From assembly GCA_951406725.2 (NCBI GenBank), contig OX597818.1, positions 34,968,001 through 35,032,000 of the forward strand: a stretch of DNA of 64,000 nt, read 5' to 3'. The position numbers were made by a program, and so were the translations under genes. The notes under the pieces were generated by a model that saw nothing but the letters and a program-made list of their open reading frames with translations, ran no database searches and was not told the origin of the DNA. The DNA comes from Octopus vulgaris. Its lineage: Eukaryota. Shown here in pieces: positions 4,540 to 61,204 of the stretch. Position 1 is the first letter of the stretch; every line of letters begins with the position of its first letter.

Positions 4540-6510
4540 ATTGTCATCATCATCATCACCATCATCATCACCATCATCACCACCACCACCACCACCACCA
4601 CCACCACCACCACCACACCACCACCATCATCCTCATCATCATCGCCATCATTTAACACCCATTTTCCATGCTGGCATGGGTTGGATGGTTTACCAGGAGC
4701 TGATCAGCTGAAGGGCTGTTCAGGCTCCACATCTGTTTTGACATGATGGTTTCTACAGCTGGATGCCCTTCTTAAACACCAACCACTTTACAGAGTGTAC
4801 TGGATGCTTTTATGCAGCATGGGTGCTTTTTATGTGGCACCAGCATCTACAAGCCTGCAAGATTTAGGGACACTCAGCTAGAGACAGATGCTGGGGATGA
4901 GCCTGTATGCAAGGGCAACCATGGTTTTACTTAGCTTGCCATGTCTTCTCAAACACAACAAACTGCCAGGAGTCTTGGTCTCCAGTCATCTCCTCTGTGA
5001 ATACCAGCATCTGTAGATCCTTTCTCATCATTTCACCTCATATCTTCCTGGGTCTACCCTTTCCACATGTTCCCTCTACAATTATAGATCAGCACCTCTT
5101 GATGCAACTGTCTTCATTCATATGCATTACATGGTCATACCAGCACAGTCTTCTCTCTTGTACACTACATCTGATGCTACATATACCTGTTTTTTTCTCT
5201 CAGATCCCTTACATTCTGTCGTATATGCACACTAACACTACCCATTCAGCAAAGCATACTGGTTCAAGTCTTTGCATATCCTCAGTAGTCATAGCCCCAT
5301 GTCTCACTGCCATGTAGTATAGCTGTTCATACACAGGCATTGTACATTCTGCCTTTCACTCAGAGGGAGAGACTCTTCATTACTAACAGAGCCAGTAGCT
5401 CTCTGAACTTGGCCCAGTCTATTCTGATTCTAGCAGCTATGCTTTTGGAACAACCATTCTCACTACAAACTCGGTCACCTAAATAACAGAAACTGTCTAC
5501 TACATCTAAGGATCCCCACTGTCATATGAGGGAGTCTGTTTTTTTGTACATTCCTAGTGTTTAATGTACTTGCACATCTGCCACTTGTAAAGACTACTTT
5601 CTCTGTTAGTGAAACTACCGCACCTCTTATGTGTCCATAGCTTGAACTGGGTACACCTTATGGAGTTTCTCCCAACACCTGTATCAAGCAAGGCCATCTC
5701 CCTGAAGAGATCTACAATTTGTCTGTTTTCCTACTTACCAATACTTTGGTATTTGCTAAATTAACTCAAAGGCCCTTTTATCCCAGTTTGTGCTTCAATA
5801 CCTGAAATTTCTTCTCCAGTTCTGGTAGTGATTCAGCAATAAGAACAAGGTCATCAGCATAGAGGGGCTCCCAAGGGCAGCCAGTCTTAAATAAGAGGTA
5901 TCTAGGAACCGAACCCTGGTGGACTCCTACTTGTACACTAAACTCCTTGCTATACTCATTGGTGACTTTCACCTTACTAACAACATCCTTGCACATGATT
6001 TGTACAGCTCTCACTAACCATTCATCAATCTTTAGCTTCCACATTGTCCACCAAATAAGGGAGTGGAGGTCCCTGTCAAAGGCTTTCTCCATGTTAACAA
6101 AAGCTAGAAACAGGATTTTATTTTTGGCCAAGTATTTCTCCTGCAGTTGCCTCACCAGGAAGATAGCATCGGTGGTGTTTCTCCTTGGTACAAATCCAAA
6201 CTGCATCTCATCTGTGCTGACTCTCTTCCTAATTAATGGAGCTATGACCTTTTTTGCAACTTTCAGCACCTGGTCCAGCAATTTAGTACCTCTGTAATTA
6301 TTTCTGTCTAAGGCATCACCTTTGCCTTTGAAGCAGTTGTCTATAATGCTGCTACACCAATCATTGGATATGACTCCCTTATGGACAACCTGATTAACTA
6401 TACAGGTTACCAGGTCACATCCCACTCCACTGAAGATTTTAAGCATCTCGGCAGTGATCCCTGATGGGCTGGAGGCTTTCCCTGTCTTCATATCCCTAAT
6501 TGCTTTATCT
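4540..6510 (-). mobile_element. 5'-truncated RTE-clade LINE with RT relic, C-terminus, 3' UTR and (GAT/GGT)n tail
   Basis: RT ORF 5778-6510; EGTCGKGRPRKI near 5040-5075; continues into the AAGGGCATCCAGCTGTAGAAAC...CAACCCATGCCAGCATGGAAAA 3' UTR and trinucleotide tail. Confidence 0.9.
5778..6510 (-). pseudogene. RTE reverse transcriptase fragment
   Basis: KGKGDALDRNNYRG, QFGFVPRRNTTDAIF, FVNMEKAFDR, GVHQGSV, YADDLVL; internal deletion between QGS and YADD and premature stop; the N-terminal part of the tracked ORF (to 6623) is non-element sequence. Confidence 0.92.
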
Positions 6511-7499
6511 GCTAAGCTAGTGATGAACAAAGCATAGTAATACATCGATAATTTTGGTAAAAAAAAAAGTAAATTAAACAAAATAAAATAAGAAAACATC
6601 CACCCTCCAACAGAAACACGCACCTAAAGATAAGAAGTCTGATTATAAGTGCATTAGATCTTGTAGACCGTGGTTCAAGTGTTGTCAGAGTACCAAGGCT
6701 GATATACACCATCAGAAAAAAAAAAGCTGAATTTTGTAGGTTATCTTAATCCTCCCCTCTCTCTTTCTCTCTTGTCTCTTTTCTTTCTTTTACCCCCTCC
6801 CCACTTGCTCTCTCTTTCTCTCTCTCTCTCTCATTCACTCCTTCTTTTTCGTTTTTCTCAGTTACCTCTTGCTTTTTCATTTAGATTTAACAATAGCTTA
6901 AAAGTGAAAGGAAGAAAGCTTATTCCTGGAAGAGTTGTATATGTAAATATGAGTCAGCAGACTTCTCTCTATATGTTTGTGTGTATGTGTAGATAAACAT
7001 GTGTGTTTGTGTGTGTATGTGCATGCCTCTGTATGTGTGTGTTTGATATGCAAGCATATGTGTTGCATATGTATTTAAATGTGTGCAGATGTGAATGTGT
7101 TTGAGCGTGTCTGTAGCCGTACAGAATATTTAGAAAGATATCTATATATGGCTTAGTGAATGTCTGTGTATCCGTCTATATACATACCCATTTATATATA
7201 TATATATATACATGGATATCTATGTATGGGTTTGTGAACATCTATGTATGTATACACCCAGATTCCTTAAAGTACATATTGTAATTCAGATGTATATATA
7301 TTTATGGCTAAAAATGGAAAATCCTCCTTAAACATATGACTTAGAAATTCCCTTCTCTGGAGGTGATACAAAGATCAGATCTATTACATACACCTTCAGC
7401 ATGTGTGTGTATGTATGTATGTGTGTGTGTGTGTGTGCGTGTGCGCGCACGCGCGTGCATGTGTGTGTGTGAGTGTTTGTTTAAGAGAGCAAGACGCAT

Positions 7500-8885: not shown

Positions 8886-8929
8886 TTAATTTACTAACAA
8901 TTTAAAGCGTTTCCCAACTGGATATTACC

Positions 8930-9523
8930 ACCATCACCACCATCACCACTGCCACCACTGCCACCACTGCCACCACTGCCACCACCGCCACCACTGCCAC
9001 CACCACCAACACCAACACCACCATCATCATCACCATCATTTAACATCCGCTTTCCATGCTAGAATGGGTTGGACGATTTGACTGAGGACTGGTGAACCAG
9101 ATGGCTGCACCAGGCTCCAATCTTGATTTGGCAGAGTTTCTACAGCTGGATGCCCTTCCTAGTTTGTTAAAATCATTAAAGGATGTTGGATTTGTAGAAT
9201 CAATTGAAGAGACACAAAAAGGGGATGCAGAAAAATGGAAGACACAAAGAGAGGGAGAGAGAGAGAGAGAGAAGGCAGAAAAAAGAAAAAAATCAAAGGC
9301 GCAGGAGTGGCTGTGTGGTAAGTAGCTTGCTTACCAACCACATGGTTCCGGGTTCAGTCCCATTGCGTGGCATCTTGGGCAAGTGTCTTCTGCTATAGCC
9401 TCGGGCCGACCAATGCCTTGTGAGTGGATTTGGTAGACGGAAACTGAAAGAAGCCTGTCGTATATATGTATATATATATATGTATGTGTGTGTGTGTTTG
9501 TGTGTCTGTGTTTGTCCCACTAG
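8930..9523 (+). repeat. Local duplication, copy 1 (copy 2 about 13890-14475)
   Basis: Near-identical across trinucleotide tract, RTE tail, unique spacer and SINE A head. Confidence 0.85.
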
Positions 9524-11538: not shown

Positions 11539-12403
11539 TTGAGAATAACCCATATTGCACAACCTGAGAATTAGTAGAAAACCTCAACCTATCAAAATCC
11601 ATCGTTCATGAGCACTTGGTAAAGCTTGGGTACACAAATCACTACGATGTTTGGGTACCTCATGAGTTGAGTGAGAAGAATCTTTTGAATCGCATTTCCA
11701 TCTGTGATTCACTTTATAAACAGAATGAAAACGCGCCATTTTTAAAGCAAATTGTGACAGGTGATGAGAAATGGATTATCTACCGAAATGTTCAGAGAAA
11801 GCAATCCTGGAGTAAGCAACAAGAGCTTAGCCACCTCAAAAGTGGGTCTTCACCCTAAAAAAGTCTTGATTTATGTCTGGTGGGATTGGAAAGGAATTCT
11901 GTACTATGAGCTTCTCCCAAGTAACCAGACAATTAATTCTGAGAAATACTGCACACAACTGGATGAGTTAAAAGCAGCAATTCAAGAGAAACGTCCAGGA
12001 TTGACCAACAAGAAGAGTGTTATTTTCCAACATGATAATGCAAGACCACACGTTTCTTTGGGAACCAGACAAAAATTGCTGCAGCTCGGCTGGGATGTGT
12101 TACCCCACCCTCCATATTCACCAGATATTGCTCCTTCGGATTTCCACTTATTCAGGTCTCTGCAGAATAGTCTTAATGGTAAAAATTTCAATTCCTTGGA
12201 TGATGTAAAAAGATACCTTGATGAATTCTTTGCCATGAAACCACTTCAATTCTAGGAAGATGGTATTTTCAAGTTAAAGGAAAGATGCAGATGAATTGTG
12301 CAACAAAATGGTTCATATTTGGTTGACTAAAAATATAATGGCAAGGATTTATTGACCTTTTTCTTTCCTTTAAAAATTGGCACAAACTTTCCGGACAACC
12401 CAA
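11539..12403 (+). mobile_element. 5'-truncated mariner (DD34D) transposon with frameshifted transposase
   Basis: WVPHEL, IVTGDEKW, HDNARPH, HPPYSPDIAPSDFHLF across ORFs 11616-11858 and 11761-12255; right TIR ...CAAACTTTCCGGACAACCCAA followed by TA at 12404-12405. Confidence 0.93.
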
Positions 12404-13756: not shown

Positions 13757-14112
13757 CCATCATCATCATCATCACCATCACCATCACTATCACCATCAAA
13801 ACCACCACCACCACCACCACCATCATCATCGTCATCATCGTCATCATCGTCATCACCATCATCACCGTCATCACCATCATCACCGTCATCGCCATCACCA
13901 CCATCACCACTGCCACCACCGCCACCACTGCCACCACTGCCACCACTGCCACCACCACCAACACCAACACCACCATCATCATCACCATCATTTAACATCC
14001 GCTTTCCATGCTAGAATGGGTTGGACGATTTGACTGAGGACTGGTGAACCAGATGGCTGCACCAGGCTCCAATCTTGATTTGGCAGAGTTTCTACAGCTG
14101 GATGCCCTTCCT
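13757..14112 (-). mobile_element. RTE 3' end (family B) with compound CAT/CAC tail
   Basis: Consensus match 13992-14112; trinucleotide tract 13757-13990. Confidence 0.8.
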
Positions 14113-14247
14113 AGTTTGTTAAAATCATTAAAGGATGTTGGATTTGTAGAATCAATTGAGGTGACACAAAAAGGGGATGCAGAAAAATGGAAGACACAAA
14201 GAGAGGGAGGGAGAGAGAGAGAAGGCAGAAAAAAGAAAAAAATCAAA

Positions 14248-14418
14248 GGCGCAGGAGTGGCTGTGTGGTAAGTAGCTTGCTTACCAACCACATGGTTCCG
14301 GGTTCAGTCCCATTGCGTGGCATCTTGGGCAAGTGTCTTCTGCTATAGCCTCGGGCCAACCAATGCCTTGTGAGTGGATTTGGTAGACGGAAACTGAAAG
14401 AAGCCTGTCGTATATATG

Positions 14419-14449
<31 letters not shown>

Positions 14450-14672
14450 TTGTGTGTCTGTGTTTGTCCCACTAGCATTGCTTGACAACCAATGCTGGTG
14501 TGTTTACGTCCTCCATCACTCAGCGGTTCGGCAAAAAGAGACCGATAGAATAAGTACTGCGCTTACAAAAAGAATAAGTCCCGGGGTCGAGTTGCTCGAC
14601 TAAAGGCGGTGCTCCAGCATGGCCACAGTCAAATGACTGAAACAAGTAAAAGAGTAAAAGAGTAAAAGAGTA
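14248..14672 (+). mobile_element. SINE family A, full length
   Basis: Head, central microsatellite, (AAGAGTA)n tail. Confidence 0.9.
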
Positions 14673-17764: not shown

Positions 17765-18106
17765 AGCTTACACTGGGTGCATCTTATAGAGTTTCTACCT
17801 ACACATTTTCTACAGATTGAGCAGGGCCATCAACCTGAAGGGATTTATGATTTGTCTGCCTTCCTACTTAAAATGACTTTGGTTTTTGCTAGGTTAATGC
17901 TAAGGCCCTTTGATTCTAGACCATGCTTCTGTACTTCGAACTTCTCCCGTTCAGGTAGTGATTCAGCTATAAGAGCAAGGTCACCAGCATAGAGGAGCTC
18001 CCAGGGGCTGCCTGTCTTGAATTCCTCTTTTATTGCCTGGAGGACTATAATGAACAAGATGGGGCTGAGCATCAATCCTTGGTGGCCCCTGAATTCTTCA
18101 CTGTAC
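17765..18106 (-). pseudogene. RTE RT fragment (downstream part of split copy)
   Basis: HQGLMLSPILFIIVLQA...WELLYAGDLALIAES...GLSINLAKTKV. Confidence 0.88.
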
Positions 18107-19278
18107 TTGGATATCCGCCACAAGTGTGTGTGTCCGTGTGTTATACATGCGGCCAATGTGGCTGTTGACGGCTAATGAGTTTGTCCAATGGGGACGTGGT
18201 TGTGGGGTCATTACTGCCACTCAGCCAAATCCGCCCTCCACCATGCTGCTGTGCAGCACCTGCACTTTGCCGATAGCTCTGTACCTCGTGTCTGGCAGTG
18301 CGATCGAGAGGCCATTGTCTTGGCGGCGATATCAATTGTGAGTGTGTGTGTCCATGTGTTACGCATGCGGCCACATGATCATTACCACTGCTTGGTCGAA
18401 TGCGCACTCTGCAGCCATGCCATGCACTGCATACATTTCGCTGATAGCTCTGCGCTCTCGTGCTCACAATCGTTAGTAATGCACAAAAGCGCATGGTCTC
18501 GCGCGCATCAACATGGACGCCACCGTGACCGATGCTGGCAGCGTGGCTGCTGTCGCTGGGAGGTCCGCGTGATCCAAGTGGTCGATATCGGGATGTGGTC
18601 CGTCCTGTAAATTTACAGGTTGGGCCATGTGGAACAGCCACGCTCTAGATGACTGTCGCACCCTGAGGGGTCCCGACTACATTAAGGGGTACAAGCCAGC
18701 AGGTCGATGTCTCCGGCTTCGACTGCACTGCGGCACCAACGACTGCCAATGCTGCCCGGAGCCCTGTGATGGCCACAGCCTTCATGCGACCTGCACCGGG
18801 CTACCTTCCTTTGTGTACACGCTGTGGCTGCTGCCGCATGATGACTGTCGCAGCGGTGTCCTGTGCTCCCGTTGCAGTACCATGTCTGACTCGGCTGCTG
18901 GTGGCTCAGCCACTGACCGCGACTGTGACCATGTGGTTATCACTGCTGCTTGTCCGATTGTGCTTTCCACCTCTCCACCATGCTGCCATGCATTGTTTGC
19001 ATTTCGCCAAGAGCTCCGCGCTCTTTTGCTCACGATCATCGGTAACGCACAAAAGCTCACGGTCTCGTGCATGTCAACATGGATGCCACAGCGACCGATG
19101 CCGGCAGCTTGGAGGCTGTCGCTGGGAGGACCACATGATCCACATGGTCGATATCATGACGTGGTCTGTCCCATAAATTTACGGGTAGGGCCACGCAGAA
19201 CAGCCACGCTCTAGGTGACCATCGCATCCCAAGGGGGTCCAGAGTACTATGTAAGGTTGTCCAGACTACTATGTAGGG
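18107..19278. mobile_element. Unclassified GC-rich, internally repeated insertion with 13-bp TSD
   Basis: TTCTTCACTGTAC at 18094-18106 and 19279-19291; interrupts RTE RT; internal repeats about 18370-18690 and 18930-19256. Confidence 0.85.
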
Positions 19279-19527: not shown

Positions 19528-19797
19528 ATAGTTATCGCCATACTAATATGGCATTCTTATAAAAATAAGAATAAAGCTGACCGCTTATTAGCTCCATGAG
19601 GCCATCGCCTTAAGTTAGCTATTTGATACACAAACTGTATCAAATAGCTAACTTAAGGCGATGGCCTCATGGAGCTAATAAGCGGACAGCTTTATTCTTA
19701 TTTTTATAAGAATGCCATATTAGTATGGCGATAACTATTATTTTCCGGGAACGCTGCCGTGTTCTCTTTTAGAGAGACTTAGTAATTTTAATATTTC
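19528..19797. repeat. Near-perfect 103-bp inverted repeat plus unique tail, in (TA)n
   Basis: Arms 19528-19630 and 19636-19738, loop CAAAC, one mismatch; homologous to 35906-36239. Confidence 0.9.
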
Positions 19798-20430: not shown

Positions 20431-20595
20431 AAAGTGGACAGTCAACATGCTAGATATAGACGTCAAATCGTCATTCACCACAAAAGATTATGTTCTCAGA
20501 TCAAACTCAACACTTTTGTGTTGAGTTTGATCTGAGAACATAATCTTTTGTGGTGAATGACGATTTGACGTCTATATCTAGCATGTTGACTGTCC

Positions 20596-20600
<5 letters not shown>
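20431..20600. repeat. Perfect 83-bp inverted repeat with TTTT loop
   Basis: Arms 20431-20513 and 20518-20600 are exact reverse complements. Confidence 0.95.
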
Positions 20601-20635: not shown

Positions 20636-21411
20636 GATAAGAAATGGAGCAATAATAACACTTAGAAGTAGATCTTTGGTGTTTTAAAGTTATTTAATAA
20701 CAAGGAAAGTATGTTTACAGCTGTTTCAGTATATCAAGCTCCAACTGATATATGGAATTATGGACCTTACTAAAATGTAAGACTATTGAATTAACAAACA
20801 TTTTACTTCTTTTTTTTTCCTTTCCTTTCCTTACATTCTTCTTATTTACTTCTATTTATCTTTGACATATAATTGTTCTGATGATGTCTATCAATTGCAA
20901 CAAGGTAAATGAAAATTTACCCCAGCTATATATACTGAAACAGCTGTAAAATATTATCATCATTATTAAATGACTTTACGAGGGGCGTTCAATAAGTAAT
21001 GCCTCTGACCCACTTGCAGTTGTTTGATCTAGCTGAAAGTTTGCATGTGCAATTATTTATATCTCTATAGATTAAGTGGCAAATTACAGCTCTGAACTAA
21101 TTGTGGTTTCTGATTTACAGGTGTTTGAACTGAGTCAAGTGTGAAACGGAGCTTGTTGAGTGTCGAGCAGTGATGCGGTTTTTGTATTTGAAAGGACGCA
21201 CACCACGGGAAACTTTTGATGAAATAAAAGTAACTTATTGTGATGATGCCCTATCATATGACCTTGTAAAACGCTGGCATCGTGAATTCAAACATGGTCG
21301 GAACTTTGTGGAAACAGCTTCCAGATCTGGTCGCCCCTTTCTGTCATTGATGAGGCATCTGTCCGTACCAATGATCTACTTCTAACTGTTATTATTGCTC
21401 CATTTCTTATC
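20636..21411. mobile_element. Fold-back element with hammerhead-like motif, interrupted by mariner
   Basis: Left arm 20636-20733 pairs with 20930-20977 plus 21367-21411; CTGATGA 20878-20884 and GAAACAGCTGTA 20937-20948. Confidence 0.7.
20979..21366 (+). mobile_element. Mariner 5' fragment (irritans-like)
   Basis: TA|CGAGGGGCGTTCAATAAGTAATGCC TIR; ORF 21170 FLYLKGRTPRETFDEIK...VKRWHREFKHGR...RSGRP is the N-terminal HTH. Confidence 0.88.
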
Positions 21412-25312: not shown

Positions 25313-26057
25313 CAGTGATCCCTCGCTACTTCGTGGTTCAACTATCGCAGATTTTAAAAATATATATATATGAACGCCTAAAATTTTTCATTAAATCCAT
25401 TAAAATATTAATCATCATCATCATCATCGTTTAACGCCCGTTTTCCATGCTAGCATGGGTTGGACGGTTCAACTGGGGTCTGGGAAGCCAGAAGGCTGCA
25501 CCATGCCCAGTCTGATCTGGCAGTGTTTCTACAGCTGGATGCCCTTCCTAATGCCAACCACTCCGTGAGTGTAGTGGGTGCTTTTTATGTGCCACCTGCA
25601 CAGGTGCCAGACGAGGCTGGCAATGGCCACAATTGGATGGTGCTTTTTACGTGCCACCACCACGGACGTGCCACCAAATAAATATTATTTCCTAGTCTAG
25701 GAACAACAAAACAAGAATAAAATAACAAAGATGTATATACAGGGGTATTTGAACTTAAGATGGCCTGTGATTGGTGCAATGGCGAGAGATGTCGAATCAC
25801 AGCTTTCTGTTTTGTAATCTGGCCTGTATAACAGTAACAATCTTTATTTTTTTAAATCTAAAGTGTTATTGCTTAACATTTGTCCTCGTTATTAATAGAC
25901 TACTGTAATGGGTGGGTTGTTAACAGTACAAGGAGGGTTTTAAAAGTCCAAATACACGTTAAATAAACACTGTAAATATGGTGTTCCTACTTCGCGGAAA
26001 TTCAGTTATCGCGACCGGTCCTGGAATCAATCTACCGCGATAAATGAGGGATCACTG
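25313..26057. mobile_element. pogo/Tigger-type MITE containing an RTE 3' end (about 25411-25677)
   Basis: TA|CAGTGATCCCTC ... GAGGGATCACTG TIRs. Confidence 0.8.
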
Positions 26058-26275: not shown

Positions 26276-26681
26276 TTACTCTCTTTACTCTTTTACTTGT
26301 TTCAGTCATGTGACTGTGGCCATGATGGAGCACCACCTTTAGTCGAGCAAATCGACCCAAGGAGATATTCTTTGTAAGCCTAGTACTTATTCTATCGGTC
26401 TCTTTTGCTGAACCGCTAAGTTACGGAGATGTAAACACATCAGCATCGGTTGACAAGTGATGTTGGTGGGGACAAACACAGACACACAATCATATACACA
26501 CACATACATATATATACATATATACGACAGACTTTTTTCAGTTTCCGTCTACCAAATCCACTCACAAGGCTTTGGTTGGCCCGAGGCTATAGTAGAAGAC
26601 ACTTGCCCATGGTGCCATGCAGTGGAACTGAACTCTGGAACCATGTAGTTTGTAAGCAAGCTGCTTACTACCCAGCCACTC
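26276..26681 (-). mobile_element. SINE family A
   Basis: Consensus match. Confidence 0.85.
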
Positions 26682-28598: not shown

Positions 28599-28905
28599 TA
28601 TATATATATATATGCATATACATGAATACATAGTTGTTGTATATATAATTATATATAAAAATAATTATATATATTATATAAACATAATTGTATATATAAT
28701 TATATATAAACATGCATATATCTATATCTATCTATCTATCTTTTTCCTGGTGTGTGTGTGTGTGTATATATATATATGTATGTATAAATATGCATATGTA
28801 TATATATACATATATATATGTATATATACATATGTATATGTATATGTATGTATGTATGTATATATATATATATATATATACATATATAAAATATATGCAG
28901 ATATA

Positions 28906-29076
28906 GGCGCAGGAGTGGCTGTGTGGTAAGTAGCTTGCTAACCAACCACATGGTTCTGGGTTCAGTCCCACTGTGTGGCATCTTGGGCAAGTGTCTTCTG
29001 CTATAGCCCCGGGCCGACCAATGCCTTGTGAGTGGATTTGGTAGACAGAAACTGAAAGAAGCCTGTCGTATATATG

Positions 29077-29107
<31 letters not shown>

Positions 29108-29304
29108 TTGTCCTCCTAGCATTGCTTGACAACCGATGCTGGTGTGTTTACGTCCCCGTCACTTAGCGGTTCGGCAAAAGAGACCGATAGAATAAGTACT
29201 GGGCTTACAAATAATAAGTCCCGGGGTCGATTTGCTCGACTAAAGGCGGTGCTCCAGCATGGCTGCAGTCAAAATGACTGAAACAAGTAAAAGAGAAAAG
29301 AGAA
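28906..29304 (+). mobile_element. SINE family A, full length
   Basis: Consensus match. Confidence 0.9.
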
Positions 29305-29347
<43 letters not shown>

Positions 29348-29670: not shown

Positions 29671-30236
29671 CTCTTTACTCTTTACTCTTTTACTTGTTTC
29701 AGTCATTTTGACTGCGGCCATGCTGGAGCACCGCCTTAAATCGAGCAACTTGACCCCAGGACTTATTCTTTGTAAGCCCAGTACTTATTCTATTGGTCTC
29801 TTTTGCCGAACCGCTAAGTGACGGGGACATAAACACACCAGCATCGGTTGTCAAGCAATGCTAGGGGGACAAACAGACACTATAAATTAATATGTTCAAT
29901 AAAAATAATTATTTTCGAAATTTTTTCTCTTATGAGGTTCTTACGCTATCTACCTGACAATTTCTTGTTAAGTTTTCCTTATTAAGTAGTTGTCCATTGC
30001 TATATATATATATATATATATATACTTTACTCTTTACTCTTTTACTTGTTTCAGTCATTTTGACTGCGCATGCTGGAGCACCGCCTTAAATCGAGCAACT
30101 TGACCCCAGGACTTATTCTTTGTAAGCCCAGTACTTATTCTATTGGTCTCTTTTGCCGAACCGCTATGACGGGGACATAAACACACCAGCATCGGTTGTC
30201 AAGCAATGCTAGGGGGACAAACAGACACACAAACAT

Positions 30237-30271
<35 letters not shown>

Positions 30272-30433
30272 CATATATACGATGGGCTTCTTTCAGTTTC
30301 TGTCTACCAAATCCACTCACAAGGCTTTGGTCGGCCCGAGGCTATAGTACAAGACACTTGCCCAAGGTGCCACACAGTGGGACTGAACCCGGAACCATGT
30401 GGTTGGTAAGCAAGCTACTTACCACACAGCCAC
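29670..30433 (-). mobile_element. SINE family A: duplicated 3' half (29670-29880) plus full copy (30024-30433)
   Basis: The two 3' halves share private variants (CCGCCTTAAATCGAGCAACTTGACCCC). Confidence 0.85.
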
Positions 30434-30442
30434 ATATATATA

Positions 30443-30632
30443 ATTTAAAGAAGATAGAAAATGGAGAAATATCAATGAACATCAATTGACTTACATCAAA
30501 TATTATTTATTAATTCATGTAAATAGACTACATAGATGGGATGCAGGTTCTTTGTATTGAATTAATAAATAATAATTAATGTAAGCAAATTGTTGTTTAT
30601 TGATATTTCTCCATTTCCTCTCTTCTTTAAAT
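30443..30632. repeat. Imperfect fold-back element
   Basis: ATTTAAAGAAGATAGAAAATGGAGAAATATCAAT pairs with ATTGATATTTCTCCATTTCCTCTCTTCTTTAAAT. Confidence 0.8.
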
Positions 30633-32028: not shown

Positions 32029-32521
32029 TATTTTATTTAATGTGATCATCAGTTTGTTTTTTTAAAATTGCTGAATTTAATAGAACAGAAATTTGTTTGC
32101 TACCTCTAGCAAGTGGTGGCCACATGAAGGCTCCATCCATTGGCTTGCTATGCCGTGTTTACAATATATATTAAAAGCTCAACCATAAACCTATTCCAAA
32201 CTTACTTTTTGAACAATGTCAACAAGAACTGTGATACATAAACAATAGTCTTAATGAGATAGAGTAGAAATGCAAAACTAAAGAAACAACAACAGTACAA
32301 TTAGCAGCAGCAGTAATTATGGATCATTGCTGTTTTGTTTTTTAACCTTGTTACTTCAAATAGTAAGGAGCAGATAGGTGAATGTCATTTTTACATTTCA
32401 TTTGCCAGTTTTTTCATAGTGCGGGTTCTGATGTGTCATGCAAGACTTCTATATACATTCACTTCACATATATATATATATATATACATGTATAAAAATA
32501 TGAATAAAATATATATATAGT

Positions 32522-32911
32522 AGGCACAGGAGTGGCTGTGTGGTAAGTAGCTTGCTTACCAACCACATGGTTCCGGGTTCAGTTCCCACTGCGTGGCACC
32601 TTGGGCAAGTGTCTTCTACTATAGCCTCGGGCCAACCAAAGCCATGTGAGTGGATTTGGTAGATGGAAACTGAAAGAAGCCCATTGTATATATGTATATA
32701 TATATGTGTATATGTGTGTATATTTGTATGTCTGTGTTTGTCCTCCCCAACATCGCTTGACAACCGATGGTGGTGTGTTTATGTCTCTGTAACTTAGCGG
32801 TTCAGCAAAAGAGACCAATAGAATAAGTACTAGGCTTACAAAAAACAAGTCCTGGTGTCAATTTGCTCAACTAAAGGCGGTGCTCCAGCATGGCCACAGT
32901 CAAATGACTGA

Positions 32912-32915
<4 letters not shown>
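32522..32915 (+). mobile_element. SINE family A
   Basis: Consensus match. Confidence 0.88.
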
Positions 32916-32956
<41 letters not shown>

Positions 32957-33960: not shown

Positions 33961-34291
33961 AATATACTTCACTGCTAGACAATATGAGATGGGCTTCCAT
34001 GCAATTTCTATCTATCAAATTCACTCACAAGGCATTGGTTAACCCAAGGCTATAGTAGAAGATACTTGCCCAGAGTACCACATGGTAGGACCGAACCTAA
34101 AACTACAGAACTGTTTCCTACCACATAACAATGCCTGCACTTATTCAAATATCTTTTATTTTTTACTTGTTTCAGTCATTAGAGATACCAATAAAAAAAA
34201 AGTAAAAAATCTTTTTACTATTATTTTATTGGTATCTCTTTTATAAAAATTTTATATATCTTCATTTTTACCTTAATATTTATATATTCTA

Positions 34292-35905: not shown

Positions 35906-36239
35906 ATTATTTCTAAGTCTCTCTAAAGGAGACTACGGCAGCGGTACTGGATATTAACAGTTATCACCAATCTAATATGGCAGTCCGTAAATATAGGATG
36001 AAAGCTGCCGTTGATAAGCTCCAAGAGGCCATTGCCTGTAGCTAGCTATGTGACACATGAACCTGTGTCCATTTAAACCTTTGAACAGGGAAGGTCAGCT
36101 GCTGTTCGAAGGTTATAATGGACACATGTTAGTGTGTCATATAGCTAGCTAGAGGCAATGGCCTCTTGGAGCTAATCAACGGCATCTTTTGTCCTATATT
36201 TATGGACTGCCATATTAGATTGGCGATAACTGTTAATAT
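35906..36239. repeat. Fold-back element (~140-bp arms) plus tail, same family as 19528-19797 in opposite orientation
   Basis: Arms span 35951-36239; tail 35906-35950 is the reverse complement of about 19744-19790. Confidence 0.88.
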
Positions 36240-38483: not shown

Positions 38484-38485
<2 letters not shown>

Positions 38486-38908
38486 AGAAAATAGAGAGAT
38501 AATTAATAATTATTTATAAATAAATTAGACATCATCTCTGACAGCTGTTTCGATACCAGACCGTTATAAATTAATTACCATAATTAATACCATTTAAAAG
38601 TCAAATCTCATCAGAGATGGCTAAAAATATACAAGGTATTCATATTCCTACTTGCGGAGTATAAGGCTCAAACAGTTTGGAACAGTATACTCAACAAGTA
38701 GTAATATGAATACCTAATTGTATTTTTAGCCAGATCTGATGAGATTCGACTTTTAAATGGTTTTAAGTATGGTAATTAATTTATAATTAATTTATAATTA
38801 ATTTATATGGTAATTAATTTATAATGGTCTGGACTCGAAACAGCTGTCAGTGATGTTGTCTAATTCTTCAATTAATAAATAATTATTAATTATCTCTCTA
38901 TTTTCTTA
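38484..38908. mobile_element. Fold-back element with hammerhead cores on both strands
   Basis: Plus: CTGATGA 38736-38742 and GAAACAGCTGTC 38837-38848; minus: TCATCAG 38608-38614 and GACAGCTGTTTC 38540-38551; arms about 180-220 bp. Confidence 0.8.
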
Positions 38909-41846: not shown

Positions 41847-42450
41847 GGACTGAGGTAACTCCTCCAGAAGTTATAGAGAAATAAATAGAAGAGTGCCAAA
41901 GTTATCATGCAAAATTGGTTATCATAAAAAATAGAAGTGACATATATACATACATACATATATAGACACTAATTCACACATATGCACTTGGATATATAGA
42001 TGTATATCACAGACATTTGTGGACATACACTAATCCAAATATGTACAGACACATGGGCACCCTCCCCCCCCCCACACACTAACATATACACATGAACATT
42101 AAATGATGATGATATTAATCTGTTCTGACCCCTTCTCTCATACTTTTACCCATCATCTTGTAGCATAAAATATCCTCTTCAGGGTTCACAGTCTTTCCAG
42201 GTGCATAGTGACAGCTTGAAAAAAGAGCACCCAGTATACACTGTAGTGGTTAGCATTAGGAAGGGCATCCAGCTGCAGAAACCATGTGCAACTAGACAAT
42301 GGAGCATGATGTAGTCCTTAGATAAACTTGGGTAGTTTATCCCATCCCCCCTCTGACTTCTAGTATATGCAGTTGAAAAAACCACATTATTTATGGGATG
42401 ACCCCAATGCATGGAACCATTTAAAAAAAATATCGCATGAGAGACCGATA

Positions 42451-42610
42451 GGTGCAGGAGTGGCTGTGTGGTAAGTAGCTTGCTTACCAACCACATGGTT
42501 CTGGGTTCAGTCCCACTGTGTGGCACCTTGGGCAAGGGTCTTCTGCTATCGCCTCAGGCCGACCAAAGCCGTGTGAGTGAATTTTGTAGACGGAAGCTGC
42601 AAGAAGCCTG

Positions 42611-42676
<66 letters not shown>

Positions 42677-42902
42677 TTGTGTGTGTATATGTTTGTGCGT
42701 CTGTGTTTGTCCTCCCCAACATCGCTTGACAACTGATGCTGGTGTGTTTACATCCCCCGTCACTTAGCGGTTCGGCATGAGAGACCGATAGAATAAGTAC
42801 TAGTCCTACAACGAATAAGTCCTGGGATTGATTTGCTTGACTAAAGGCGGTGCTCCAGCATGGCCGTAGTCAAATGACTGAAACTAGTAAAAGAATAAAA
42901 GA
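42451..42902 (+). mobile_element. SINE family A
   Basis: Consensus match. Confidence 0.88.
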
Positions 42903-44742: not shown

Positions 44743-44887
44743 GTATATGTATAATTGTATCAAGGACCTATAATCCTTTAAGGGATGCTAGCATCCTAAT
44801 TCTCTGGCTTATACCATTGTGCAGTGAAAACTAAATAAATTAGTTTTGCATTTATATATATAAAGGTATTTAAAATAATTATGAATG

Positions 44888-45381
44888 GGAAAAAGAAGAA
44901 AATGAAGAAACTGACATGCAGACATCAGGTTATTTAAAGATATTCAAATCCATATAACGAAATTCCAGTCCTACAGCTGTTTCCATATCTAATTAGTTCA
45001 CTTACAGAAACTGAATTAAGTTAAATTAAATTAATTTAATTTAATCTAATTAAAATTTTTGATGTTGAAACTGGTTATTTGGGTATTTCATCAGGGAAAG
45101 ATTTCCCAAAAGGGAGTTATATTTCAAAGTGTTTGATGTCCTATGACAGACTCTTAAAATGTAACTCTCTTTTGAAAATTTCTTCCTGGATGAAATATCC
45201 AATTAACCAGTTTCCACATGAAAATTGAAATCAAATTAATTTAATTAATTTAATTTAATTTCTGTAATTGAACTAATTGGATATGGAAATGGCTGTAGGA
45301 TTTGAATTTCATTATAAAGATTTGAATATTTTAAAATATTTTAAAATGTCTGCATGTCAGTTTCTCTATTTTTTCTTTTCC
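44888..45381. mobile_element. Fold-back element with hammerhead-like cores
   Basis: Arms about 230 bp; minus-strand CTGATGA (45088-45094) and GAAACAGCTGTA (44972-44983); plus-strand mirror decayed (CTGGATGA, GAAATGGCTGTA). Confidence 0.78.
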
Positions 45382-45386
45382 TCATA

Positions 45387-45780
45387 TATCATCATCATCA
45401 TCATCATCGTTTAACGTCCGTTCTCCATGCTAGCATGGGTTGGACGGTTCGACCGGGGATCTGGGAAGCCAGAAGGCTGCACCAGGCTCCAGTCTTATCT
45501 GGCAATGTTTCTACAGCTGGATGTCCTTCCTAACGCCAACCACTCCGTGAGTGTAGTGGGTGCTTTTTACATGCCACCTGCACAGGTGCCAGGCGAGGCT
45601 GGCAACGGCCACGGTCGGATTGGTGTATTTTACGTGCCACCAGCATGGAAGCCAGTCGAGGCAGCGCTGGCATCGGCCATGAGTCGGATAGTGCTTTTTA
45701 CGTACCACCAGACCAGGGATCTTGGCTGGTTCAATTCGATTTTGATTTCGCTTTCGCTTGCCCCAACATGTCTTTGCAAG
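45387..45780 (-). mobile_element. RTE 3' end (family B)
   Basis: Consensus with internal units. Confidence 0.85.
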
Positions 45781-45887: not shown

Positions 45888-46295
45888 GAGCAAAACGCCC
45901 CCATCCAATGGACGGTGCTGAGTTGTCAGACATTTAAACCAAATTTTCTCAAAACAACTTGTCTGACCGTTCCATAGGCCTCCCCTTTGAGAAACACTGA
46001 TTTAACTTAAATTTGAGACACTAAACAGGCCAGCTTTTTGTGCACAAACTGCACGTACATTTTTCTCGCATGTGCGTGGTATTGATCGCAACAGTTGATG
46101 TTCTTGCGCTTACAAATGCACATTCCCACGGCTTTATCGATCGCATTCTCACCTGGAATCAATTTTTGTAATTTTTTCAAGACTTATACACGCCCTGATA
46201 CCATCAGTATCTACATATCAAATTTGAGCGCAATCGGATGGAGGATGCCTGAGATTCTAGAAGACACACAGACAGACAGAATGGATTTTATAATA
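45888..46295. mobile_element. Non-autonomous Helitron/Helentron-like element
   Basis: Copy of 37404-37852 with a different central segment. Confidence 0.6.
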
Positions 46296-46410
46296 TATAT
46301 ATATATATATATATGTGTGTGTATAAGGATGAAATGGAACACACGAGTTGATATATATGAAAAAATAAGTCAAGATAGAAAATGCTAAAATAATTTTATA
46401 AAGAACATTT

Positions 46411-46448
46411 CAGTACCGGTTTTGGTCATTTTGAGACCTTTTCAACTG
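46411..46448 (-). ncRNA. Minimal hammerhead motif, U3-A8 variant (G12 mutated to A)
   Basis: Minus strand CAG-TTGAAAA-GGTC-TCAAAAT-GACC-AAAA-CCGG-TA-CTG. Confidence 0.6.
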
Positions 46449-46654
46449 TAACGATTAAATAATTAAATTTAGAAAAATTAAAAGAAAAGTTTTTTTAAAA
46501 GAATATTTGTATAGTGTTCAAATATAAGTGGCATTTTCCTTGTTTCTGCCTTGCTCTGTCTCTCTTGTTTACACTTGTGGGTTCGAGGTCAAACAAATCA
46601 TCTTTTAAAAAAACTTTTCTTTCAATTTTTCTAAATTTAATTATTTAATCGTTA

Positions 46655-46692
46655 CAGTTGAAAAGGTCTCAAAATGACCGAAACTGGTACTG
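46655..46692 (+). ncRNA. Minimal type I hammerhead ribozyme motif, U3-A8 variant
   Basis: CAG-TTGAAAA-GGTC-TCAAAAT-GACC-GAAA-CTGG-TA-CTG: stem I CAG/CTG, stem II GGTC/GACC, GUA site. Confidence 0.75.
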
Positions 46693-46743
46693 AAATGTTC
46701 TTTATAAATATATTTTAGCATTTTCTATCTTGACTTGTTTTTC

Positions 46744-46807
<64 letters not shown>

Positions 46808-48310
46808 ATATATACGTTTATATATTTATTGTGCAAGATTTGGCTAAACTGGCAAAATGACCATTCCGAAATACAACAATATATATATATATATATACAC
46901 ATACACATACACGCATTCATAAATACATACACATGTATGTATACAAATTCAAGCCTCAGTACACTATACACCTCATACATACTTGTAGGTATGCTGCACA
47001 GCTTCCTTAATATTAAGAAAAATAACATATGTAAGCATACACATATATGTAAAAATAAAAAGAAATCTTTTATAATTCCAAATATTTATCAAATTTTTGC
47101 TAGTAATGACAGGTTAAACAAAAAAATGATAAATGAAAATAAATAATTAAAAAAAGTAAAACAAAAAATAAATAGTTTGATCTCACAGCGATTGTGACAT
47201 TATGCAATTGATAAGGTGACCTGAGTTGATCCTATCACACTTCCTAATCAAGGAAGAAATCATACACATAAACACTCAGACACATACATACATACATACA
47301 TACATACAGACATATCCTATGTATCTTTGAGCATGACGTAACAATACAGAGTACACTCAGCATGGTGATAAATTTCCTTATGACAGGTTATATAAATGAG
47401 ATTGAATAGGTTGAAATATTCAAAGTTTAAAAAAGTTCTTTGGAACATTTTCACCTTTGCTGTATTGAACTTTCGGGTTTTTCTCTTCTTCTTGGATACA
47501 ACGGATATTTGAAAAAGTCATTGATTTGAATAAACCAAACAGTGATATAGAAGGAGTTCACATTATAGCATGCTTGGTGAATGCTGTATACATATATATA
47601 TGAGGTAATTAATTCCTTACCAAAATATAACAACAAATATGTATTGTCATACATATTTAATTAATTTTGTATACCTGTATGTATTAGTTATGTATAAGTC
47701 ATGTATGTCTGTGTGTATGTATTTACATGTATGTATTTGGCATGTAAGTATGTATATAAGTATATATATTTTTGTATTAGTTATATATGTACGGTGTTTA
47801 GCTATATATGTATTATTTAGCCATATATGTAATATCTATGTGTTTGTGTAAAAATGTCTCAAGAAATGTTTGAATTCAAGCTGTACCACAGATGCACGGT
47901 TTCTTACCTGAGGGTAAACCCTAAATAGTAGAGATACTCCAAGAGGGAAAAAGAACCTCTGTAAAAATCCTAAGTGTATGGGAACCAAAGGTTGGCGGTA
48001 TGGTTCTTGACCTCTTGTATAATTTTCTGTGAATAAATACGGGAAAGTCTTTATGATTTTCCTTCCTGGTCTTTTGCTGTTTATCTATATGCAAAGTGAA
48101 ACCAAGCTAAGTGGATCTTTTGAAATTACACTGGTATCTCATAGGACTATTGATGATGACTTTCACACTCTGGTAAAGTGGGTATGAGAATATATTGGGT
48201 GACCCTTGAAGTGTCTGAAATCATAAAAAAAAAAGGTTAAGAATTATTCCTCTAACAGTTTTCTTTCTACTATCTGCAATTCCATTTTGTCAGGAAACAT
48301 TGCATTTAAA

Positions 48311-48551
48311 ACACTCACCGGTAAAATTTCCACTTATTTTGTCTTTTTATCTTCCTAAAATTTGAAAAGGTTGCAAGACGCAACGAAAAGTTTAGGAAAA
48401 TAAAAAGATGAAATAAGTGGAAATTTTACCGGTGAGTGTGTTAAATAATAAGGCACTAAAAGAGAATGACTCTCCCCAGACACAACAGAATATGCTTCAA
48501 CACACAAACTCATATAAAGAATCTTACAAACCAAATCCAAAAACGAAATAT
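48311..48551. mobile_element. Hairpin element with central hammerhead-like motif and 12-bp TSD
   Basis: ATTGCATTTAAA at 48299-48310 and 48552-48563; inverted arms span 48305-48445; centre TTGAAAA-G-GTTGC-AAGAC-GCAAC-GAAA (48362-48388). Confidence 0.82.
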
Positions 48552-52663: not shown

Positions 52664-52699
<36 letters not shown>

Positions 52700-52990
52700 G
52701 ATTAACGTCTGTTTTCCATGCTGGCATGGGTTGGACGGTTTAACTGAGGTCTGGAGAGCCAGCGGCTGCACCAGGCTCCAATCTGGTCTGGCAGAGTTTC
52801 TACAGCTGGATGCCCGTCCTAATGCTAACCACTCCAAGAGTGTAGTGGGTGCTTTTTACGTGCCACTGGCACAGGAGCCAGTAAGGCGAGCCTGGCAACG
52901 ATCATGTTCAGATAGTGCTTTTTGTATGCCACCGGCACCGGAGCCAGTCAGGTAGTACTGGCATCGGTCATGATTGGTTGGTGCTTTTTT
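52663..52990 (-). mobile_element. RTE 3' end (family B)
   Basis: (CAT)n plus consensus. Confidence 0.82.
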
Positions 52991-53283: not shown

Positions 53284-53289
<6 letters not shown>

Positions 53290-53470
53290 TAAGTAAAAGA
53301 AAAAAGAAAATGGAGAAACTGATGTATATATTTATTTGAACATATTCAATTCTGTACAATGTCAAACTCAAAGGAATTTGAATTTGATATTGTACAGTAT
53401 TGAATATTCTCAAAGAAATTGATATTTATATATCAATTTCTTAAATTTCTTTTTCAGTTCCTTAAATAAT
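53284..53470. repeat. Imperfect fold-back element
   Basis: AATTCTGTACAATGTCAAA pairs with TTTGATATTGTACAGTATT; leader AAGAAAATGGAGAAA shared with 30443 and 44888. Confidence 0.7.
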
Positions 53471-59520: not shown

Positions 59521-60484
59521 CATCATAATTATTAAGGCGGCAAGTTAGCAGAATTGATAGCACACACACACACACACACAGACATGTATGTCTATATGTA
59601 TGTATATGAATGTGTGTGTGGATGGGGTGTATGTGCATATCGTGTGTGCGTGTTTGTGTTTCCTTGTCTTGACAGTACATGATAGGTGCGAGCAAGAATC
59701 ACCATCATACAAATGATGGTCTTCATTTTCAGCTTTCTGTGTAAAACATGTTTAGTTTTGGGGAAATATTAACTTACTTGGAAACAGTTGAGAGTTGGTG
59801 ACAGGAAGAGTATCCAGCTGAAGAAAATCTGCCTCAATGAATTCTATTTGATACATGCAAGCATGGAATTGTGGACATTCAAATAATTGGTGATGACAAT
59901 GATGTAGATGACAACGATGATGATGATGATGACGACAATGATGACAACGATGATGATGATGTTGATGATGACAATGATGATGATGATGACAATGTTTATA
60001 ATGACAACTAGCTGGCCCTGTGCCGTCATAAATGATGGCTAATTGTAGTATTTTATATATAAATAAGGTACAAAATAATCAGATGCAAATATTCACATAT
60101 TTCCCGTGTACACGCACATGCATACACACACATACACTAGCACAGAGTTGAAATGCTGTTTGATTTTTCTTTTCAGTGTTGAATGTTCACCATCCCATTT
60201 CCATTGCACACACACACACAGACACACACACACACAAACATTCACATGACACCCTTTTACATAACACACACATACACTCACACAAGGTTGAAACACTGTT
60301 TGATTTTTTCTTTTTTTCCACTGTAGAACTTCCATCACCCCACTACCAAATTTGCCTCTACTCCTTCCTTCCTTATTCATCTATCACCCCTTCCTTTCTC
60401 ATTCATATGTTGTGACAGAGAAATACACAACAGTATTATCATAGCAGATGATGAAATCATTTGATCTTTACAATGTTGAATGAT

Positions 60485-60904
60485 AGGCGCAGGAGTGGCT
60501 GTGTGGTAAGTAGCTTGTTTACCAACCACATGGTTCCGGGTTCAGTCCCACTGCATGGCACCTTGGGCAAGTGTCTTCTACTATAGCCTCAGGCCAACCA
60601 AAGCCTTGTGAGTGGATTTGGTAGACGGAAACTGAAAGAAGCCCGTCGTATATATGTATATATATATATGTATATGTATGCGCGTGTGTTTGTGTGTCTG
60701 TGTTTGTCCTCCCACCATTGCTTGACAACCGATGCTGGTGTGTTTATGTCCCTGTCACTTAGTGGTTCGGCAAAAGAGACCGATAGAATAAGTACTGGGC
60801 TTACAAAGAATAAGTCCCAGAGTCAAGTTGCACAATTAAAGGCAGTGCTCCAGCATGGCCGCAGTCAAATGACTGAAACAAGTAAAAGAGTAAAGAGTAA
60901 AGAG
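60485..60904 (+). mobile_element. SINE family A, full length
   Basis: Consensus match. Confidence 0.9.
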
Positions 60905-61204
60905 ATATAAAGTTCAATCATTACAGTTTGATGAGATTGCAAATCTAAAGTTGCTGTTTGTATTAGATATAATTGAGTAACAATCTAAAACATTTCATTA
61001 TATCAATCATTTTTCCTGTTTCAAGAAATCTCAGATTTTTTACTGAGTTCTTTCTCACACTTGCCCTAAGATCTCTCTCTCACCAGTTTGCTGTTCTCAC
61101 ATTTATGCCCGCTCTGATTAATTTACAACCCTATGAAGAAGTCCCTATAGTAGCTAAACTTCCCTCAAATCTCACACTGTCATTTTAAATGTTTGTTCTT
61201 TCTC

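What the first reader, a model, noticed from the sequence alone, without database searches (positions are those of the whole stretch)
46351..46751. Best case: compact U3-A8 hammerhead mirrored in both arms of a 400-bp hairpin
The two arms correct each other to CAG-UUGAAAA-GGUC-UCAAAAU-GACC-GAAA-CCGG-UA-CUG. The usual C3-G8 tertiary pair is replaced by U3-A8, a compensatory double change that argues for selection on catalysis, and stem III is the palindrome ACCGGU suited to dimer formation. Each arm has one lesion (G12A on the left, CCGG to CTGG on the right), both compatible with CpG decay.
Basis: partly seen in the sequence, partly recalled or inferred. Interest (0 to 1): 0.8.

Follow-up and report, generated by a model that had tools for sequence, protein, structure and literature searches.

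The report
Penelope-element foldback with known hammerhead variant
The 400-base hairpin is two decayed, head-to-head copies of the end of a very abundant repeat, likely a Penelope-like jumping gene; each copy carries a hammerhead self-cutting-RNA motif whose unusual U3-A8 core is already published, and this copy is predicted to be inactive.

Summary
Arms 46361-46510 and 46593-46742 are 95% complementary, and each holds a type I hammerhead motif (core 46658 +, 46445 -). Contigs from three organism labels confirm that G12, U3, A8 and the stem III palindrome are the family majority, so each arm's lesion is private, and both lie at CpG sites.

The mirroring is not independent evidence: it follows from an inversion. 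The 'loop' is the longer copy's own upstream sequence, the junction is private to this locus, and other loci join at other points. The left end alone carries a ~37-nt family-borne extension, the one-sided 'tail' of Penelope-like elements (PLEs), and both ends lie in (TA)n. Two neighbouring foldbacks have the same layout with C3-G8 cores.

U3-A8 cores, palindromic stem III and opposite-strand pairs 100-700 bp apart are all published for PLE hammerheads (PMC4209133). A second subfamily swaps G10.1-C11.1 for A-U, modest support for selection in the source lineage. This locus is predicted to be inert: read-through RNA forms a long duplex, and the right-arm lesion favours a misfold. No linked RT/endonuclease gene was found; cleavage is untested. 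New member of a known kind.

The parts
46322..46590 (-). Longer copy (269 nt) of the repeat's 3' end, read 46590 to 46322; 5'-truncated at 46590
   Evidence: table 7: letters before 46593 in other copies equal the reverse complement of the 'loop', and other copies continue beyond 46590
46593..46743 (+). Shorter inverted copy (151 nt) of the same 3' end, without the tail, running into (TA)n
   Evidence: (blastn 46593-46751, 94%)
46591..46592 (.). Head-to-head junction with 2 bases that belong to neither copy; private to this locus
   Evidence: summed depth falls 20- to 40-fold below the peaks on either side in bin 46591-98 in the three DNA-type runs; no listed piece spans the stretch; five other joints at other points
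46322..46358 (-). One-sided ~37-nt extension (short TA run plus 29 unique nt), read as the PLE 'tail'; its outer end is set by the start of the microsatellite
   Evidence: One search compared by eye with loose-end rows: X4 row 46740, 24 of 29 letters (15 of 20 past the TA run); X1 row 46741, 13 of 18 past the TA run; binomial p about 1e-5 and 7e-5
46655..46692 (+). Right type I hammerhead motif: U3 46658, A8 46663, G12 46680, predicted cut after 46689; private C-to-T at 46685 in stem III
46411..46448 (-). Left type I hammerhead motif: U3 46445, predicted cut after 46414; private G12A at 46423; stem III palindrome intact
46511..46590 (-). Hairpin 'loop': upstream sequence of the left copy, itself high-copy; no Pfam match in the two open frames tested
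   Evidence: proteins 146, 147
46292..46321 (.). Left flanking (TA)n/(TG)n microsatellite, likely insertion target
46744..46814 (.). Right flanking (TA)n microsatellite, likely insertion target

Best explanation
The hairpin is two 5'-truncated copies of the 3' end of a high-copy repeat, joined head to head inside a (TA)n tract, and is likely a single insertion of a Penelope-like retroelement (PLE) whose terminal repeat carries a type I hammerhead of the published U3-A8 variant. Shown here: the two-copy anatomy, the private junction, other junctions at other loci, the one-sided extension, the family-majority ribozyme sequence and the two private lesions. Inferred from PLE biochemistry: the element's GIY-YIG endonuclease nicked both strands of an AT-rich target, reverse transcription began at two start sites about 37 nt apart downstream of the ribozyme (one end with the tail, one without), both cDNAs stopped early (269 and 151 nt) and were joined by repair. 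Inferred for the source elements: the hammerhead would cut after GUA as a dimer paired through the 6-nt stem III palindrome, probably weakly or with protein help (my odds that the family-majority form cleaves as a dimer in vitro: about 0.6). This locus is predicted to be inert: neutral CpG decay hit one arm at G12 and the other in stem III, and RNA made through the foldback would be a ~150-bp duplex.
For: Anatomy and family data. Five further head-to-head joints at different points (46570|46624, 46572|46647, 46587|46701, 46589|46694, 46591|46701; one contig each, depth 7-68; table 5). Other copies also run into TA at 46740-41 (table 7). Compensatory A10.1-U11.1 with a 2-nt shorter loop II on one contig (X10 record 16), with the same 5' side in 10, 14 and 18 loose-end contigs of X1, X4, X8. 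Predicted double-hammerhead dimer for the left arm, -27.3 against 2 x -8.8 kcal/mol. Same layout, with C3-G8 cores 56-88 nt from the outer end, in foldbacks 38484-38908 and 44885-45385. Literature: U3-A8 variant and opposite-strand pairs 100-700 bp apart (PMC4209133; same 7-nt core in the S. mansoni(4) row); inverted 5'-truncated copy, 30-40-bp tail at one end, (TA)n targets (PMC8557442); both strands nicked and extended, two RT start sites defining the tail, hammerhead protein-assisted and dispensable for insertion in vitro (PMC11167929).
Against: No RT/GIY-YIG gene is linked to this family: none among 147 frames scanned in the window (145 of 331 stop-to-stop frames of 60 aa or more, plus 2 short ones), and no genome is held. 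The extra base between A9 and 10.1 that is in the PLE consensus is absent. Rfam scores are far below gathering. The tail comparison rests on by-eye matching to consensus rows of 0.64-0.67 agreement and was not clear in X8. Only one covarying pair was seen, which may be one event, and the family is too young for core invariance to mean much. Joints from contigs laid at 80% likeness with short sides can be artefacts.
Confidence: 0.85

Rival explanations
1. The element is a MITE or foldback DNA transposon with 150-bp terminal inverted repeats and a TA target, and the hammerhead is a passenger or a chance match.
For: Long inverted repeats at the ends, TA flanks, high copy number, no coding capacity; mariner-type transposase fragments occur in the window.
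Against: The junction is private and other loci join elsewhere; the loop is collinear upstream sequence of one arm; only one end has the extension; the motif is rare in shuffles and shows a compensatory change.
Confidence: 0.04
2. The family is a non-LTR retrozyme or SINE-like hammerhead repeat that spreads through small circular RNAs, and the foldback is a secondary rearrangement.
For: Compact type I hammerhead with 4-bp stem II and short palindromic stem III; no ORF; retrozymes are proposed to be non-autonomous PLE derivatives (10.64898/2026.07.22.740005), so this reading overlaps the main one.
Against: No head-to-tail tandem at this locus and no recurring unit-length joint among those listed; retrozymes are defined as ~300-bp tandem repeats (PMC7229834); tail and inversion are PLE insertion traits.
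Confidence: 0.07
3. This locus itself makes an active, selected ribozyme: sense RNAs from the two strands pair in trans, and the right copy's intact G12 core cuts the left copy's intact site.
For: The left+right heterodimer folds into the double-hammerhead topology with one G-U wobble in stem III (-25.0 kcal/mol).
Against: It gains only 3.2 kcal/mol over the monomer folds; it needs divergent transcription starting inside the hairpin; both lesions sit at the most mutable sites and match neutral decay; read-through RNA cannot fold either motif.
Confidence: 0.03

Closest known systems
Minimal type I hammerheads in the pseudo-LTRs of metazoan Penelope-like elements, including the U3-A8 variant of S. 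mansoni Cercyon elements (Cervera and de la Pena 2014, PMC4209133; main text parts 1-2 of 4 and supplement parts 1-2 of 3 read)
   Same: Type I topology, U3-A8 covariation, the same 7-nt core as the S. mansoni(4) row, G10.1-C11.1, palindromic stem III, short stem I, U-rich 5' and AU-rich 3' flanks, thousands of dispersed copies, pairs on opposite strands 100-700 bp apart.
   Different: No extra base between A9 and 10.1; stem II is 4 bp, not 7-8; stem III is a 6-nt palindrome rather than the bare core; no PLE ORF shown to be linked; Fig. S3 lists no cephalopod.
Hammerhead of the Marsupenaeus japonicus PLE (row in Fig. S3 of PMC4209133; MjPLE01 called Neptune-like in PMC8557442)
   Same: No extra base, 4-bp stem II, 6-nt palindromic stem III, cut after UA; its A-U first pair matches the second subfamily here.
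   Different: Canonical C3-G8 core, 5-bp stem I, shorter loop II; no sequence relationship was tested.
Inverted, 5'-truncated PLE insertions with a one-sided 30-40-bp tail and (TA)n preference (PMC8557442, passages; PAc in vitro, PMC11167929, parts 1-2 of 4)
   Same: Inverted truncated copy at the 5' end, extension at one end only, AT-rich microsatellite target, hammerhead near the 3' end.
   Different: Both copies here are so short that no ORF remains, giving a MITE-like look; the clade is unassigned. Naiads also target (TA)n but are reported to lack canonical hammerheads, and three short motifs from this window found no match in that paper's supplement.
Non-LTR retrozymes (PMC7229834, passages; 10.64898/2026.07.22.740005, part 1 of 5)
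   Same: Non-coding, type I hammerhead, abundant, likely PLE-mobilised.
   Different: Retrozymes are head-to-tail tandems with circular RNA intermediates; this is a head-to-head pair.

Membership tests
Type I hammerhead ribozyme | Conserved core bases 3-9, 12-15.1, 16.1 and H17 with a Watson-Crick 3-8 pair | tested here: met
   Right arm has all of them with U3-A8; left arm lacks G12; family majority has all
Type I hammerhead ribozyme | Stems I, II and III can form | tested here: met
   Left arm: stem II p 0.99, stem I p 0.76; stem III forms 6 bp in the predicted dimer. Right arm as it stands misfolds, stem I p 0.005
Type I hammerhead ribozyme | Covariation that keeps the helices | tested here: inconclusive
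   One pair, G10.1-C11.1 to A-U, both sides on one contig; may be a single event
Type I hammerhead ribozyme | Score at an Rfam hammerhead gathering threshold | tested here: not met
   HH9 18 bits against 52. This tests membership of the Rfam families only, not of the ribozyme class
Type I hammerhead ribozyme | Site-specific self-cleavage | not testable with these tools
   Needs an in vitro assay; only contigs could be laid, which cannot show RNA ends
PLE-associated hammerhead (metazoan) | Short palindromic stem III, G10.1-C11.1, short stem I, AU-rich flanks | tested here: met
PLE-associated hammerhead (metazoan) | Extra base between positions 9 and 10.1 (consensus trait, not universal) | tested here: not met
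   Absent here; also absent in the M. japonicus and S. kowalevskii(2) rows of Fig. S3
Penelope-like element insertion | 5'-truncated copy with an adjacent inverted truncated copy, breakpoints varying between loci | tested here: met
   tables 2, 5, 7
Penelope-like element insertion | 30-40-bp tail at one end only | tested here: met
   46322-46358, 37 nt, left end only; similar letters in loose-end rows of 2 of 3 DNA-type runs
Penelope-like element insertion | AT-rich or (TA)n target | tested here: met
   Both flanks here and the loose ends at 46740-41; not specific to PLEs
Penelope-like element insertion | Family linked to a telomerase-like RT plus GIY-YIG ORF | not testable with these tools
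   No genome held; loose ends give 30 letters only; none adjacent in the window, as expected for copies of 151 and 269 nt
MITE / foldback DNA transposon | Copies share fixed symmetric ends and a fixed interior | tested here: not met
   Private junction, other joints elsewhere, one-sided extension
Non-LTR retrozyme | Head-to-tail tandem units of about 300 bp | tested here: not met
   Head-to-head at this locus, no other copy in the window; other loci could not be examined
Non-LTR retrozyme | Circular RNA intermediate | not testable with these tools
   Contigs only

The most novel reading that the evidence does not exclude
This genome holds thousands of miniature, ORF-less, ribozyme-bearing PLE foldbacks from several families, each pairing one tailed and one untailed 3' end. 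If that pairing is systematic, they are a natural record of both target strands being primed from the two RT start sites seen in vitro, and would directly test how PLE inversions form. They would also be the first hammerheads described for this host group if it is a cephalopod, and a large source of MITE mimics and long double-stranded RNA.
Probability: 0.3. Interest if true: 0.45.

Novelty: new member of a known kind. Interest (0 to 1): 0.2.

Why it matters
As a ribozyme variant it adds little: U3-A8 is published and recurs in PLEs of many hosts. Its value is in annotation and mechanism. Such hairpins are easily filed as MITEs or miRNA precursors (a neighbouring foldback draws low-E miRNA matches), and a 64-kb window holds at least three with hammerhead motifs. 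The tailed/untailed ends offer a genomic test of how PLE inverted insertions arise, which PMC8557442 names as unresolved. My searches for hammerheads in octopus or cephalopods (open-licence library only) listed no paper devoted to them.

Tried and rejected
No whole genome is held, so no genome-wide consensus or copy count. Summed contig depth divided by the median depth of the 8 listed pieces per run gives about 6,000, 17,000 and 10,000; the tool warns this is no copy number, so I use it only as 'high-copy'. Sequencing runs: 24 listed, 12 studies, 6 organism labels; I laid 4 (labels A, B, C); the other 20 are not used as evidence. No RNA holder listed; X10 is only guessed to be RNA, so nothing is claimed on expression. 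Metagenome scans: 0 hits with the family pattern; 3 hits with a looser pattern, judged chance: by eye none is flanked by family sequence or has the family's stem II, two look like one bacterial coding region, and Rfam finds only tRNAs in the three loci. Other copies in the window: only low-complexity matches at 9260-9290 and 14211-14240. Idea that the loop is the C-terminus of a GIY-YIG ORF: translations showed nothing convincing and Pfam gave no match. Naiad assignment: no motif match in the supplement of PMC8557442 (line breaks could hide a match; the full Naiad sequences were not compared). Strand asymmetry of CpG changes as evidence of selection on G12: rejected, because the same asymmetry holds at 46650-51 outside the core. 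A longer distal stem I (4 more pairs past an A-A mismatch) can be drawn but no covariation was shown. miRNA matches are below gathering and reflect hairpins or microsatellites. Lunse et al. on PLE hammerhead dimers is not held; seen only as cited in PMC6765202. The O. vulgaris repeat paper (PMC13282606, passages) lists recently active Penelope-like families; its supplement was listed but not read. Earlier-scan look-ups by sequence, place and one word set returned nothing.

Full report
Observation. The hairpin is real: arms 46361-46510 and 46593-46742, 150 nt, 95% complementary, folding z-score -27.9. The right arm reads, on the + strand, as a type I hammerhead with stem I 46655-57/46690-92, core 46658-64 (U3, A8), stem II 46665-68/46676-79, G12 at 46680 and a predicted cut after 46689; the left arm holds the same motif on the - strand (core 46445, cut after 46414). 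A compact descriptor finds this one site in the window, against a mean of 0.047 hits in 150 shuffles (post hoc descriptor). Rfam gives HH9 at 18 bits, gathering 52, on both arms and nothing at gathering in the window.

The family. No genome is held and the window has no second copy, so I laid public contigs on 46511-46742. Of 24 listed runs I laid 4: 3235, 1612, 1836 and 44 contigs aligned for X1 (organism A), X4 (B), X8 (C) and X10 (A, RNA only by guess). Summed depth over the motif is 1e5 or more in most bins of the three DNA-type runs, while listed pieces have median depth 11-47, so the family is high-copy. C at 46685 is carried by 99.5, 98.8 and 97.5% of depth; 46658, 46663 and 46680 are not listed at the 3% threshold. 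Both are transitions at CpG: 2 of 12 CpG bases changed against 4-5 of 272 others (Fisher p 0.02-0.03, counts entered by hand), in a window with CpG observed/expected 0.40. That fits neutral decay, although transposon methylation is reported to be low in octopus outside gene bodies (PMC9476566, passages).

One piece of real covariation appeared. 46679 C-to-T is at 3.7, 13.7 and 17.4% and 46665 G-to-A at 0.8, 1.3 and 3.1%; X10 record 16 carries both A10.1 and U11.1 with a loop II two bases shorter, and loose-end rows with the same 5' side appear in 10, 14 and 18 contigs of the other runs. This is one pair and perhaps one event: modest support for selection on the fold in the source lineage, none for this locus.

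The hairpin is not a two-armed transposon. In other copies the letters upstream of 46593 are the reverse complement of the 'loop', and the letters beyond 46590 continue into further family sequence (table 7). So the left copy runs 46590 to 46322 on the - strand and a shorter copy runs 46593 to 46743 on the + strand, with two bases between them. Depth collapses at 46591-98 in the three DNA-type runs, no listed piece spans the stretch, and five contigs join the two orientations at five other points (table 5; one contig each, and such joints can be artefacts). The left end has an extension, 46322-46358, that the right end lacks. Loose-end rows behind 46740 (X4, 8 contigs) and 46741 (X1, 19 contigs) resemble it at 15 of 20 and 13 of 18 letters past the TA run (by eye; binomial p about 1e-5 and 7e-5); the X8 row is unclear, and other rows run straight into TA. 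The extension therefore belongs to the family and is optional.

Comparison with what is known. PMC4209133 (main text parts 1-2 of 4, supplement parts 1-2 of 3) reports the U3-A8 covariant in PLE hammerheads (about 1,300 hits in S. mansoni), palindromic stem III, and pairs of motifs 100-700 bp apart on opposite strands; dimers cleaved weakly in vitro and a monomer did not. PMC3088659 (passages) reports natural U3-A8 cores and cites their activity in vitro. PMC8557442 (passages) describes the inverted 5'-truncated copy, the 30-40-bp tail at one end and (TA)n targets. PMC11167929 (parts 1-2 of 4) shows a PLE protein nicking and extending both strands of AT-rich DNA, starting at two RNA sites whose spacing is the tail; its hammerhead cut only with protein and was dispensable for insertion in vitro. 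Every structural trait of this locus is on that list. The departures are the missing extra base after A9 and the 4-bp stem II, both shared with the M. japonicus PLE row. The one defining trait not shown is a linked RT/GIY-YIG gene; none was found among 147 frames scanned.

How it likely works. Inferred: a PLE protein nicked both strands of a (TA)n tract, copied the element's 3' end twice, once from each start site, both copies stopped early and were joined. In the source elements the hammerhead would act as a dimer: the left-arm RNA, which has the intact palindrome, co-folds into the double-hammerhead topology, 9.7 kcal/mol better than two monomers. At this locus activity is unlikely. On either strand one arm is antisense, so a cis dimer is impossible, and in read-through RNA stem II has probability about 1e-19. 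The right arm alone misfolds, because the change at 46685 lets stem III sequence pair with the 5' side of stem I (stem I probability 0.005); the left arm lacks G12, the general base (established hammerhead chemistry, recalled). A trans heterodimer can be drawn but gains only 3.2 kcal/mol.

Context. The window has at least eight other short foldbacks. 38484-38908 has an intact C3-G8 motif with a 50-nt loop II (2 real hits for the long-loop descriptor, both in foldbacks, against a shuffle mean of 0.047), and 44885-45385 has a similar core and the same stem III palindrome by eye. Their predicted cut sites lie 56 and 87-88 nt from the outer ends, against 54-55 here. The repeat content looks octopus-like to me; that is recall, not a tool result. 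Earlier notes of this scan list U3-A8 PLE hammerheads in at least four other genomes; they are unchecked and I use them only as a sign that the variant is common.

Verdict. Observation confirmed, interpretation partly supported. A new member of a known kind, interest 0.2. What remains open is the autonomous partner, cleavage by the family-majority form, and whether tailed and untailed ends pair systematically.

Noticed in passing
window 38484-38908: Head-to-head foldback whose left arm has an intact type I hammerhead motif on the - strand (C3-G8 core at 38614, 50-nt AT-rich loop II, 8-nt palindromic stem III, predicted cut at 38540); the right arm has a damaged stem I and a short extra stretch at its outer end that may be a tail.
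   Followed up: partly
window 44885-45385: Foldback with a canonical core at 45094 (-), the same stem III palindrome as the 38.5-kb element and a long AT-rich insert in loop II; right-arm copy decayed.
   Followed up: partly
window 19528-19738 and 35951-36239: Two related foldbacks (80% over 105 nt) with near-perfect arms and no hammerhead core found by my descriptors; another structured RNA is possible but was not tested.
   Followed up: no
window 20431-20600, 48304-48446, 30443-30632, 53284-53470, 34181-34239: Further short foldbacks. 20431-20600 has identical 83-nt arms; 30443 and 53284 end in a pyrimidine tract like the finding's; 48304-48446 draws miRNA-family matches below gathering and holds the same 6-nt palindrome near its ends.
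   Followed up: no
X10 record 16 and loose ends before 46673: A second subfamily with a different and shorter sequence 5' of the ribozyme, A10.1-U11.1 and a 5-nt loop II.
   Followed up: partly
window 5781-6623 (-) and 17848-18171 (-): Reverse transcriptase fragments (Pfam RVT_1, E 1e-9 and 1e-6), LINE-like by eye and far from the finding.
   Followed up: no
window 11758-12252 (+) and 21134-21382 (+): Mariner-type transposase fragments (Transposase_1, HTH_48).
   Followed up: no
window 8929-9523 and 13881-14475: A 597-nt direct duplication at 97% identity, 5 kb apart.
   Followed up: no
window 14247-14665, 26281-26681, 28905-29331, 30001-30433, 32521-32916, 42447-42899, 60479-60909 and others: A ~400-nt SINE-like repeat in many copies, and a second abundant repeat around 25411-25666, 45388-45699, 52679-52989.
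   Followed up: no
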